64,000 nt of DNA, taken from the NCBI GenBank assembly GCA_049724395.1, contig JAUGWO010000128.1, forward strand, positions 62,001 to 126,000. Direction: 5' to 3'. Shown piece by piece: positions 15,481 through 16,752 of the stretch (within the stretch, counting starts at the first letter, position 1; the number at the start of each line of letters is the position of its first letter). The notes under the pieces were generated by a model. That model did not search any database. It had not been told where the DNA came from and saw nothing but the letters and a program-made list of their open reading frames with translations. Made by a program: the position numbers and the translations under genes. Source of the DNA: Spongospora subterranea f. sp. subterranea. Lineage: Eukaryota.

Positions 15481-16752
15481 TTATCCTGCCATGCTTCATC
15501 CGAGTCGGCACTCTCATGGTCTGGCGGACATAGGACGGGACAAAGACTTCACCGCGCTCCAGTTCCCATGAGGGCACTATCACCATCCTCAAGCTGCCCT
15601 CTACGGCTCCAGAGCAGCACTTGCCTCGTAGAATACCAGACTTGCCTAGTAACAAGGCGCGGAGCTGTCTGGAGTAGTCGTCGCGATTTCGCGGTTCAGA
15701 CCCCTGGATATACCTAGACGTAATAGTGAAGATATCATCCCTGACGATACCTATGGCAGTGCACATGGCTCCCGGGAATAACAGCACCGGTTCTTACACA
15801 GATGGCCCAGACAGTTCCGGTGCGTTGGGACGTCGCACTTTGCGAGGGACTCATCCTCGTCTGATACTGAGACTGTCATGACATTCTCTAACTCCAGCTT
15901 AGTGAACCGATCCGCATCCTATCTCAAGCTGTTCGACAAGAGGATTACCAAGAATACTCTGCTGGTTCTGTACGAGACTTGTTAGGAACACTCCCATATA
16001 TTCCTAACATTCGCGGCTTCGCCGCAGTTCCGCCGCAGTTTTCCGACAAGAATGACCAGCCAGAGGTCATTCTTGTCAAACTGTTAGGAAACTGTTAGGA
16101 GGAACCAGATCCGTTGAAATAAAACCGAAGTGTATTACAAGCTATAAAAGGAGTTGACAAGAATGACCAGCCAGAGGTCATTCTTGTCGGAAAACTGCGG
16201 CGGAACTGCGGCGAAGCCGCGAATGTTAGGAATATATGGGAGTGTTCCTAACAAGTCTCGTACAGAACCAGCAGAGTATTCTTGGTAATCCTCTTGTCGA
16301 ACAGCTTGAGATAGGATGCGGATCGGTTCACTAAGCTGGAGTTAGAGAATGTCATGACAGTCTCAGTATCAGACGAGGATGAGTCCCTCGCAAAGTGCGA
16401 CGTCCCAACGCACCGGAACTGTCTGGGCCATCTGTGTAAGAACCGGTGCTGTTATTCCCGGGAGCCATGTGCACTGCCATAGGTATCGTCAGGGATGATA
16501 TCTTCACTATTACGTCTAGGTATATCCAGGGGTCTGAACCGCGAAATCGCGACGACTACTCCAGACAGCTCCGCGCCTTGTTACTAGGCAAGTCTGGTAT
16601 TCTACGAGGCAAGTGCTGCTCTGGAGCCGTAGAGGGCAGCTTGAGGATGGTGATAGTGCCCTCATGGGAACTGGAGCGCGGTGAAGTCTTTGTCCCGTCC
16701 TATGTCCGCCAGACCATGAGAGTGCCGACTCGGATGAAGCATGGCAGGATAA
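15481..16752. repeat. Long palindrome: 577-bp inverted arms (15481-16057 / 16176-16752) around a structured 118-bp centre
   Basis: Arms are reverse complements (position sum 32233 at both ends). The ORF track gives the same peptide LLFPGAM...MKHGRI on both strands (15350..15787- and 16446..16865+). Confidence 0.97.

What the first reader, a model, noticed from the sequence alone, without database searches (positions are those of the whole stretch)
15980..16253. Palindrome centre: twin 13-bp hairpins with non-inverted loops and six TGTTAGGA iterons
Seen: GACAAGAATGACC-AGCCAGA-GGTCATTCTTGTC occurs twice as a direct repeat (16045-16077 and 16156-16188). The stems fit the big inversion (pairing extends to 16079/16154), but the 7-nt loop reads AGCCAGA in both copies, where a simple inversion would give TCTGGCT on one side. 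TGTTAGGA occurs at 15980, 16082, 16093 and 16224 (+) and at 16002 and 16246 (-). Each arm adds a 9-bp TGTTAGGAA/TTCCTAACA hairpin and a GCGGC-TTC-GCCGC hairpin. TATAAAAG lies at 16143. Inference: a single strand folds into a long stem with two ears, like parvoviral flip/flop ends. The layout is what results if a 3-prime end folds back onto the distal stem and primes synthesis, which would make this an origin/telomere-resolution module.
Basis: partly seen in the sequence, partly recalled or inferred. Interest (0 to 1): 0.78.

Follow-up and report, generated by a model that had tools for sequence, protein, structure and literature searches.

The report
Folded-back LTR of self-priming retrotransposon
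The twin hairpins and repeated TGTTAGGA motifs belong to a 161-base repeat with an estimated 100 copies in this microbe's genome, likely the end (LTR) of a retrotransposon predicted to prime its own copying, which sits beside a broken viral-type gene and likely folded back on itself to make the palindrome, so they are probably not a viral origin or telomere.

Summary
The sequence description is correct; the origin/telomere reading is not supported. Public contigs show that 16093-16253 is a dispersed repeat about 100-fold deeper than its flanks. It has sharp ends and several different neighbours, whereas the adjacent Rpb1-like/helicase fragment is at 1-2-fold depth. Read on the minus strand it has LTR anatomy: TGTTAGG...CCTAACA integrase-type ends, a polypurine tract upstream in another copy, and 2 nt downstream an 11-nt stretch complementary to the LTR itself and without the TGG start of a tRNA site. 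That is the Tf1-type self-priming signature. The six 'iterons' are three LTR-internal copies, two from the inversion and one from an 11-bp tandem duplication. The 577-bp palindrome is most likely a recent fold-back duplication seeded by this LTR's hairpin and primer site. The same-direction loops need one extra step: a direct-repeat join of the primer site to the hairpin, or a loop flip. No full-length element, RT gene, TSD or transcript start was obtained, and the centre junction was not seen bridged. Possibly new: a U3 hairpin that would hide the 3' copy of the self-primer. Modest interest.

The parts
16093..16253 (-). 161-bp dispersed repeat, read as the 5' LTR of a retrotransposon (element sense = minus strand)
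   Evidence: Contigs of other loci start or stop matching at 16093 and 16253, and X2 contig 16163-16243 has depth 6951 against 64.7-69.9 for flanks. Ends fit TGTTRNR...YNYAACA.
16224..16253 (-). First 30 nt of the LTR: 5' integrase-type end plus an internal 9-bp inverted copy (two of the 'iterons')
   Evidence: Sequence; folds as a 9-bp hairpin. A purine-rich tract abuts 16253 in an X9 contig (table 7).
16156..16188 (-). LTR-internal 13+7+13 hairpin at the inferred U3/R border; its 3' arm contains 9 of the 11 nt of the predicted self-primer
   Evidence: Folds in RNA (z -6.6 for 16154-16253); covered by the deepest family contig.
16154..16164 (-). Predicted 11-nt self-primer (inferred start of R)
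   Evidence: Exact complement of 16069-16079. One 4-fold-depth X2 contig shares 16089-16165 and differs beyond 16165; other variants diverge at 16148-16155. The transcript start was not measured.
16093..16100 (-). 3' integrase-type end of the LTR (TCCTAACA)
   Evidence: A 5265-nt X2 contig at single-copy depth matches from exactly 16093.
16069..16079 (-). Primer-binding-site-like 11-mer, 2 nt after the LTR end (counted from the duplicated end), without the TGG start of a tRNA site
   Evidence: Family contigs of X1 (3 contigs), X2 (depth 264) and X9 carry the same letters next to 16089 (table 7). Background 13 of 127,122 positions.
16078..16099 (+). 11-bp tandem duplication at the LTR end (source of the TGTTAGGA at 16082)
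   Evidence: not covered by any laid contig.
16045..16077 (-). Second copy of the hairpin, a direct repeat of 16156-16188, fused to the primer site
15481..16057 (+). Left arm: inverted copy of 78 nt of LTR plus 499 nt of the LTR's 5' flank
   Evidence: 100% complementary. Collapsed into one 525-529-nt contig at 1.5-4-fold flank depth, with unique contigs entering at both outer ends, in X1, X2 and X3.
16176..16752 (+). Right arm (original copy)
16354..16865 (+). Broken, short Rpb1/beta-prime-like RNA polymerase gene (frame change near 16435-16440); its 5' 399 nt are duplicated at 15481-15879 on the minus strand
   Evidence: PDB Rpo1N E=0.0026; PHROG 2987 E=0.024; ESM Atlas 0.91-0.92 to 185-201-aa clusters, several viral, with RNA_pol_Rpb1_2.
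16789..17747 (+). Broken D5/SF3-type helicase gene (frameshift at about 17553, last ~100 aa missing)
   Evidence: PHROG E=4e-9; 93 relatives, the best six 438-453 aa at 28-32% identity; extent from tblastn.

Best explanation
The feature is one copy of an estimated 100-copy repeat, likely the 5' LTR and primer-binding site of a retrotransposon predicted to self-prime like Tf1, which lies next to a broken viral-type RNA polymerase/helicase fragment and likely seeded a recent fold-back inverted duplication of 577 bp. In the intact element (inferred), RNA would start at the 11-mer at 16164-16154. That 11-mer would pair with its complement 2 nt behind the LTR, be cut off by RNase H and prime cDNA. 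In the 3' LTR the 13-bp U3 hairpin would cover the second copy of the 11-mer. At this locus (inferred, two steps), the primer site, which shares 9 nt in direct orientation with the hairpin's 5' arm, was joined to that arm, either by deleting the internal region up to the 3' LTR or by slippage. That explains why both loops point the same way. The new hairpin's 3' arm then folded onto the distal stem and primed synthesis back over U3 and 499 bp of flank before rejoining at 15480. An equally short route is fold-back of the primer site onto the self-primer followed by a template-switch flip of the loop.
For: Shown: depth contrast, repeat contig 6951 against 64.7-69.9 in X2 (ratio 99-107), helicase contig 0.9-1.7-fold. 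Several unrelated neighbours begin at 16253/15980 and 16092-16093. Ends match the LTR consensus of PMC3601003. A purine tract lies directly before the minus-strand start in an X9 contig of depth 75.9. The 11-nt self-complement 2 nt after the LTR is carried by family contigs of three runs; it meets the criterion of PMC6317226 and has Tf1's length (PMC7175516); background is 1e-4. Family variants swap sequence at or within 17 nt of this 11-mer, as Tosmo LTRs do near the U3/R border. RNA 16164-16069 closes on the 11-bp duplex, and with U3 present the hairpin wins. Fold-back duplications with a spacer and short inverted homology are established (PMC3907307; PMC10164571), as are loop inversions (PMC8794818). 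Three further inverted repeats or duplications lie in the same window.
Against: No full-length element, second LTR, gag-pol or RT was recovered (no genome; scans empty or chance; no RT or integrase among the 25 and 42 ORF translations scanned). No TSD at this locus. The purine tract rests on one X9 contig, plus my inference from a two-contig X3 consensus. Loose ends are 30-letter consensuses. The 5' RNA fold is weak overall (z -1.3), and the two side duplexes of the Tf1 'pretzel' are not evident. AATAAA and TATAA lie on the plus strand, not the inferred sense strand. Most X2 copies differ from this one in 16093-16150, so their primer sites were not seen. The centre junction was not seen bridged in the listed contigs, and contig depth is only a rough copy measure.
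Confidence: 0.75

Rival explanations
1. The repeat is a mobile-element end of another kind or polarity: a Helentron/HINE-like element with sub-terminal inverted repeats, a DIRS-like inverted terminal repeat, or a Skipper-like LTR read on the plus strand with a polypyrimidine primer region. The palindrome still arose by fold-back.
For: The repeated short inverted motifs resemble sub-terminal repeats (recalled, not tested). On the plus strand the X9 neighbour of 16253 is pyrimidine-rich, as behind Skipper left LTRs (PMC5006619), and AATAAA and TATAA are on the plus strand.
Against: On the plus strand no purine tract precedes 16093 in family contigs, and AATAAA comes before TATAA. The minus reading gives both a purine tract and a primer site at the expected distances. 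PMC5006619 states that Skipper LTRs lack a self-complementary region, which this repeat has.
Confidence: 0.12
2. The centre is an assembly product: two loci that each carry arm plus LTR were joined through the repeat, or the consensus is wrong in the 118-nt centre.
For: No listed contig bridges 16058-16093; bin 16080-16088 has depth 0 in 4 of 4 runs; 16147 differs from all covering contigs; a 1-nt deletion at 18207 in 4 of 4 runs shows residual consensus errors.
Against: Both outer junctions and a collapsed, deeper arm are seen in X1, X2 and X3 (overlap 30 nt, just under the tool's 31-nt bridging rule). Polishing with family reads would give the inverted loop in the left arm, not the observed one (inference). 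303 and 277 records were not shown, so missing listings prove little.
Confidence: 0.08
3. One reading: the centre is the hairpin telomere or replication origin of the helicase/RNAP element, captured as a head-to-head replication junction, with TGTTAGGA iterons.
For: The geometry (long palindrome with an asymmetric centre beside an SF3 helicase gene) resembles a concatemer junction; in X2 the arm contig is about 4-fold deep.
Against: The hairpin and motifs are about 100-fold deep with unrelated neighbours; the helicase is 0.9-1.7-fold. The arms copy an already frameshifted gene with 100% identity. No HUH nuclease, resolvase or protelomerase family was hit among the ORFs scanned. There was no DNA match to the core in 79 loci with distant helicase relatives, a weak test because these are not close kin.
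Confidence: 0.05

Closest known systems
Tf1/Tf2 (Schizosaccharomyces pombe), Tj1, Tosmo and the Tf1/sushi group of self-primed Ty3/gypsy LTR retrotransposons; also plant Tcn1 and TAR lineages predicted to self-prime
   Same: An 11-nt sequence just behind the LTR is complementary to a stretch inside the LTR, with no TGG tRNA signature; TG...CA ends; purine tract before the LTR; mosaic LTR variants with breaks near the U3/R border.
   Different: The host is a divergent microbial eukaryote with no close named EF-2 relative. The LTR is only 161 bp. A 13-bp U3 hairpin overlaps the primer sequence. The three-duplex 'pretzel' is not evident in this copy. RT phylogeny and chromodomain are unknown.
Fold-back inverted duplications with a non-duplicated spacer (PMC3907307; PMC10164571)
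   Same: Perfect inverted arms, a short spacer, and inverted homology at the fold-back junction supplied by a repeat element.
   Different: Tiny scale (577-bp arms, 118-nt spacer); the homology comes from an LTR's own hairpin and primer site; one extra direct join or loop flip is needed.
Decaying viral insertions colonised by LTR retrotransposons in Acanthamoeba (bioRxiv 2024.10.31.621330)
   Same: Broken viral-type genes in a microbial eukaryote genome with an LTR element in or beside them and later rearrangement.
   Different: The fragment here is a short Rpb1-like gene plus a ~440-aa helicase family that I could not assign to a named virus group.
Dictyostelid Skipper and DGLT-A elements (PMC5006619)
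   Same: Protist LTR elements with non-canonical priming.
   Different: That paper found no LTR-complementary primer site in Skipper, and a TGG-type site in DGLT-A; this repeat has a Tf1-type complement.

Membership tests
LTR retrotransposon | TG...CA ends with short inverted repeats (TGTTRNR...YNYAACA) | tested here: met
   consensus from PMC3601003 abstract and Table 3.
LTR retrotransposon | Dispersed multi-copy repeat with sharp, shared ends | tested here: met
   Depth about 100-fold; loose ends at 16253/15980 and 16092-16093.
LTR retrotransposon | Polypurine tract directly upstream of the 3' LTR | tested here: met
   One X9 contig of depth 75.9 (tables 7-8); X3 only by inference from a mixed consensus.
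LTR retrotransposon | Two direct LTRs around gag-pol (RT, RNase H, integrase) | not testable with these tools
   No genome; no full-length copy in the collections scanned; none among the window ORFs scanned.
LTR retrotransposon | 4-6 bp target-site duplication | tested here: inconclusive
   None at this locus, but the 3' side is rearranged.
Tf1/sushi self-primed group | At least 10 nt starting 0-5 nt behind the 5' LTR complementary to the LTR, no tRNA site | tested here: met
   11 nt at +2, no TGG start, seen in family contigs of X1, X2, X9; criterion; background 13 of 127,122. Host tRNAs were not available for comparison.
Tf1/sushi self-primed group | Transcript 5' end at the self-primer and RNase H cut after base 11 | not testable with these tools
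   Only contigs were available; they cannot show RNA ends.
Tf1/sushi self-primed group | Three-duplex 'pretzel' structure | tested here: inconclusive
   The fold of the window copy gives the central duplex only; the native sequence behind the primer site is replaced in the window and was not folded.
Tf1/sushi self-primed group | RT/integrase phylogeny within chromoviruses; chromodomain | not testable with these tools
   No coding sequence recovered.
Hairpin telomere or origin of a linear DNA virus (parvovirus- or poxvirus-type junction) | The hairpin is part of the viral genome, at the same copy number as its genes | tested here: not met
   About 100-fold against 0.9-1.7-fold, with unrelated neighbours.
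Hairpin telomere or origin of a linear DNA virus (parvovirus- or poxvirus-type junction) | Flip and flop forms both present; molecules end at the hairpin | tested here: inconclusive
   The dominant contig has one loop form; one X1 loose end at 16079 may be a flipped-loop LTR; contigs cannot show ends.
Hairpin telomere or origin of a linear DNA virus (parvovirus- or poxvirus-type junction) | Linked nicking or resolving enzyme (HUH Rep, resolvase, protelomerase) | tested here: inconclusive
   No such Pfam hit in 25 + 42 ORF translations; the viral fragment is incomplete.

The most novel reading that the evidence does not exclude
A protist lineage of self-primed LTR retrotransposons uses a U3 hairpin to hide the 3' copy of the self-primer, so that only the capped 5' copy can bind the primer site. 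The same three-copy motif makes its LTRs hot spots for fold-back palindromes. Here it built a perfect 577-bp inverted repeat of a viral RNA polymerase gene that, given the minus-strand spliced RNA seen on both sides, could yield hairpin RNA and antiviral small RNAs.
Probability: 0.2. Interest if true: 0.6.

Novelty: new member of a known kind. Interest (0 to 1): 0.32.

Why it matters
It removes an apparent new viral origin/telomere module and shows how an LTR's own primer site and hairpin can produce a layout that mimics one. If self-priming is confirmed, it extends Tf1-type priming to a divergent microbial eukaryote. My four searches turned up no protist case in the listings and passages I read, and none describing a U3 hairpin over the primer copy; the library misses most subscription papers, including the two Levin papers I could not open. 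Earlier notes of this scan already list self-priming candidates outside Tf1/sushi in at least 25 genomes, which lowers the surprise. The hairpin gives a direct test of how a self-primed element keeps its 3' R copy from competing for the primer site.

Tried and rejected
No own genome. The hairpin pattern found nothing in viral contigs, metagenome contigs or genome contigs, nor did a U3 22-mer in viral contigs. The primer-site 20-mer gave one hit, L001, a chance match inside a bacterial gene. Word-indexed protein searches missed the helicase family. Locus searches in viral contigs with single proteins found no relatives; the alignment search gave 79 loci with only distant helicase cores, without the hairpin core and without a convincing Rpb1-like neighbour (best E 0.05). 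No phage match, no Rfam match, no tRNA gene in the window. No earlier scan note on this place or sequence. A loxP/FRT-like recombinase site (13+7+13) was considered from memory and set aside: the stems are better accounted for by the primer motif, and no recombinase was hit. A mriyavirus assignment of the fragment was set aside because mriyaviruses lack RNA polymerase subunits. The TATA box at 16143 was rejected (antisense to the LTR; C at 16147 in covering contigs). The X3 joint 15270-15379 has GT..AG ends but is exactly two units of a 54-bp repeat, so it is not firm evidence of splicing; the joined frame is non-coding. Of 17 runs that hold the stretch, 5 were laid (X1, X2, X3, X7, X9); small-share rows were not used. 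Missing contig cover at 16080-16088 is not proof of absence. The EF-2 search gave no close named relative.

Full report
OBSERVATION. Arms 15481-16057 and 16176-16752 are 577 nt and 100% complementary. Between them lie 118 nt: a 7-nt loop, a 15-nt stem arm, a 74-nt centre, the matching 15-nt arm and a second loop. Both loops read AGCCAGA, so the 33-mer is a direct repeat inside an inverted repeat. TGTTAGGA occurs six times in 274 bp against 0.009 expected. With DNA parameters the single strand folds as one long stem with a 7x7 bubble rather than two ears.

SETTING. The window is eukaryotic (short GT..AG introns; tubulin, TAF5, EF-2 and RIO kinase genes). EF-2 has three unnamed relatives at 92-98% and species-named hits at only 53-65% among the 120 listed of 7994 candidates scored, so the host is a divergent microbial eukaryote. 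The right arm runs into a short Rpb1/beta-prime-like ORF and an SF3 helicase ORF. Both are frameshifted, and the helicase lacks about its last 100 residues. The arms copy the already broken polymerase gene letter for letter, so the inversion is younger than the decay or has been homogenised since (inference).

WHO OWNS THE HAIRPINS. Seventeen public runs in 8 studies hold part of 15200-18200; I laid five of them, all contigs. In the two DNA runs the summed depth over 15943-16323 is 3,255-10,424 against 27-70 in the flanks. One X2 contig (16163-16243) alone has depth 6951, which is 99-107 times the flank contigs; the helicase contig is 0.9-1.3-fold in X1 and 1.7-fold in X2. The tool warns that contig depth is no copy number, so 'about 100 copies' is an estimate. 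Contigs from other loci stop matching at 16253 (15980 in the mirror copy) and at 16092-16093 and go on into different sequences; one is a 5265-nt contig at single-copy depth. The unit is therefore 16093-16253, a dispersed repeat that does not travel with the helicase.

WHAT THE REPEAT IS. Its ends fit the integrase-end consensus TGTTRNR...YNYAACA of PMC3601003 (passages and Table 3; test). Polarity comes from the neighbours, table 7. Behind 16253 an X9 contig (493 nt, depth 75.9) carries a pyrimidine run, which is a polypurine tract directly in front of the repeat on the minus strand. The two-contig X3 consensus at that place matches it at 17 of 30 letters, and all 13 differences are alphabetically earlier letters, as a tie-break would give (my reading by eye). 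Before 16089, contigs of X1 (3), X2 (depth 264) and X9 end in ATTCTTGTC. On the minus strand the repeat is thus followed, after 2 nt, by TTGACAAGAAT, the exact complement of 16164-16154 inside the repeat, with no TGG. That meets the self-primer criterion of PMC6317226 (at least 10 nt, starting 0-5 nt after the LTR; passages) and equals Tf1's 11 bases (PMC7175516, passages; also PMC4600332 and PMC5341516, passages). Only 13 of 127,122 other window positions meet it. Family variants break near this 11-mer: one X2 contig shares 16089-16165 and differs beyond, and others share the U3 side and diverge at 16148-16155. This fits a U3/R border there; Tosmo LTRs show a similar mosaic (bioRxiv 2022.12.06.519325, passages). 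The six 'iterons' are the two LTR ends and one internal inverted copy, two mirror copies in the left arm, and one from an 11-bp tandem duplication. The TATA box is antisense, and 16147 reads C in all covering contigs.

RESULTS AGAINST. No second LTR, gag-pol, RT or TSD was obtained. RNA 16164-16069 closes on the 11-bp duplex, but with z -1.3 (20 of 200 shuffles fold as well), and the two side duplexes of the Tf1 pretzel are not evident. AATAAA and TATAA lie on the plus strand. In X2 most copies differ from this one over 16093-16150, so the primer site of the main subfamily was not seen. The X7 contig beside 16090 differs in the primer site, and I could not see whether its LTR compensates. No listed contig bridges the centre, and bin 16080-16088 is empty in 4 of 4 runs; 303 and 277 records were not shown. 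Both outer junctions appear in X1, X2 and X3 with a 30-nt overlap, one short of the tool's bridging rule.

HOW IT MOST LIKELY WORKS. Element (inferred from anatomy and Tf1): transcription starts at the 11-mer, which pairs with the site behind the LTR, is cut off and primes minus-strand cDNA. The motif GACAAGAAT or its complement occurs three times: in U3, at the R start and in the primer site. When U3 is present, as at the RNA's 3' end, the 13-bp hairpin out-competes the primer-site duplex (16188-16069, z -3.3). I propose that it hides the 3' copy of the primer; this is untested. Locus (inferred): on the minus strand the window reads flank, LTR, primer site, then without a break the rest of the U3 hairpin in the same direction, then U3 and 499 nt of flank in reverse. 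Route B: the primer site folded on the self-primer and the loop was flipped by a template switch, a known event (PMC8794818, passages). Both need two steps, and the sequence cannot choose between them; one X1 loose end at 16079 is a weak hint that flipped-loop LTRs exist. Fold-back duplications with a spacer and short inverted homology are well documented (PMC3907307 and PMC10164571, passages). Three other inverted repeats or duplications lie in this window.

COMPARISON. It works like a Tf1/sushi 5' end. Membership of that group is not shown: the primer-site feature is met, the pretzel is inconclusive, and the transcript start and RT phylogeny could not be tested. Dictyostelid Skipper elements lack such a complement (PMC5006619, passages). 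LTR insertions in decaying viral DNA are reported in Acanthamoeba (bioRxiv 2024.10.31.621330, passages). Mriyaviruses lack RNA polymerase subunits (bioRxiv 2024.02.29.582850, passages), so the fragment stays unassigned; 79 loci with distant helicase cores had no match to the hairpin core. Lin and Levin 1997 and Atwood-Moore 2006 were not held and were seen only as references. No supplements were read. The resemblances to Helentron, DIRS, loxP/FRT and parvovirus or poxvirus junctions are recalled, not taken from a call. Earlier scan notes (127 findings, at least 25 genomes, unchecked) list self-priming candidates elsewhere, one with fold-back copies; I did not test them, and they lower the novelty.

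VERDICT. The sequence feature is real, but it is most likely an LTR-seeded fold-back rearrangement beside a dead viral-type fragment, not an origin or telomere (confidence 0.75). New member of a known kind; interest 0.32. The boldest reading not excluded (probability 0.2, interest 0.6) is a protist self-priming lineage whose U3 hairpin hides the 3' primer copy, makes its LTRs palindrome seeds, and here built a hairpin-RNA template against a viral polymerase gene.

Noticed in passing
window 16354-17747 (+): Short Rpb1-like gene directly followed by a helicase of a family whose best members are 438-460 aa and align almost from their N-terminus (93 relatives; of ten looked up, most are unnamed Logan or JGI proteins and one is from Blumeria hordei). 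It may represent an undescribed small eukaryotic DNA element; no genomic context of close kin could be fetched.
   Followed up: partly
window 17010-17064 and 17325-17374 (run X7); 14827-14879 (X3, X7); 15270-15379 (X3): Joints with CT..AC ends suggest minus-strand spliced RNA across the helicase remnant and to the left of the palindrome; the left product is non-coding.
   Followed up: partly
window 15435-15479 and 17616-17724: Contigs in X1, X2 and X3 join 15479 to 17646 with 11 other letters between, and diverged copies of the helicase C-terminal part exist, which points to other remnants of the same element elsewhere in the genome.
   Followed up: no
window 2576-3062 and 10999-11527: 91% identical inverted copy of part of a TAF5-like (WD40, TFIID_NTD2) gene 8 kb away, enclosing tandem arrays and ORFs without Pfam match at 8419-10299.
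   Followed up: partly
window 61921-62485 and 33749-34136: Two older, decayed inverted repeats (72% and 83%), so such structures recur in this genome.
   Followed up: no
window 1-1150, 4845-6450, 7129-7750, 12770-12950, 15261-15400: Tandem arrays with 44, 15 and 33, 44, 30 and 54 bp units; the 15/33-bp array is an open frame of 708 codons.
   Followed up: no
window 50826-51848 (-): EF-2 fragment: three unnamed proteins at 92-98% identity, then a drop to 72% and below; hits with a species name 53-65%. The host is a divergent microbial eukaryote without a close annotated relative among the candidates scored.
   Followed up: partly
window 18207 and 16147: Places where all covering public contigs differ from the window: likely consensus errors.
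   Followed up: no
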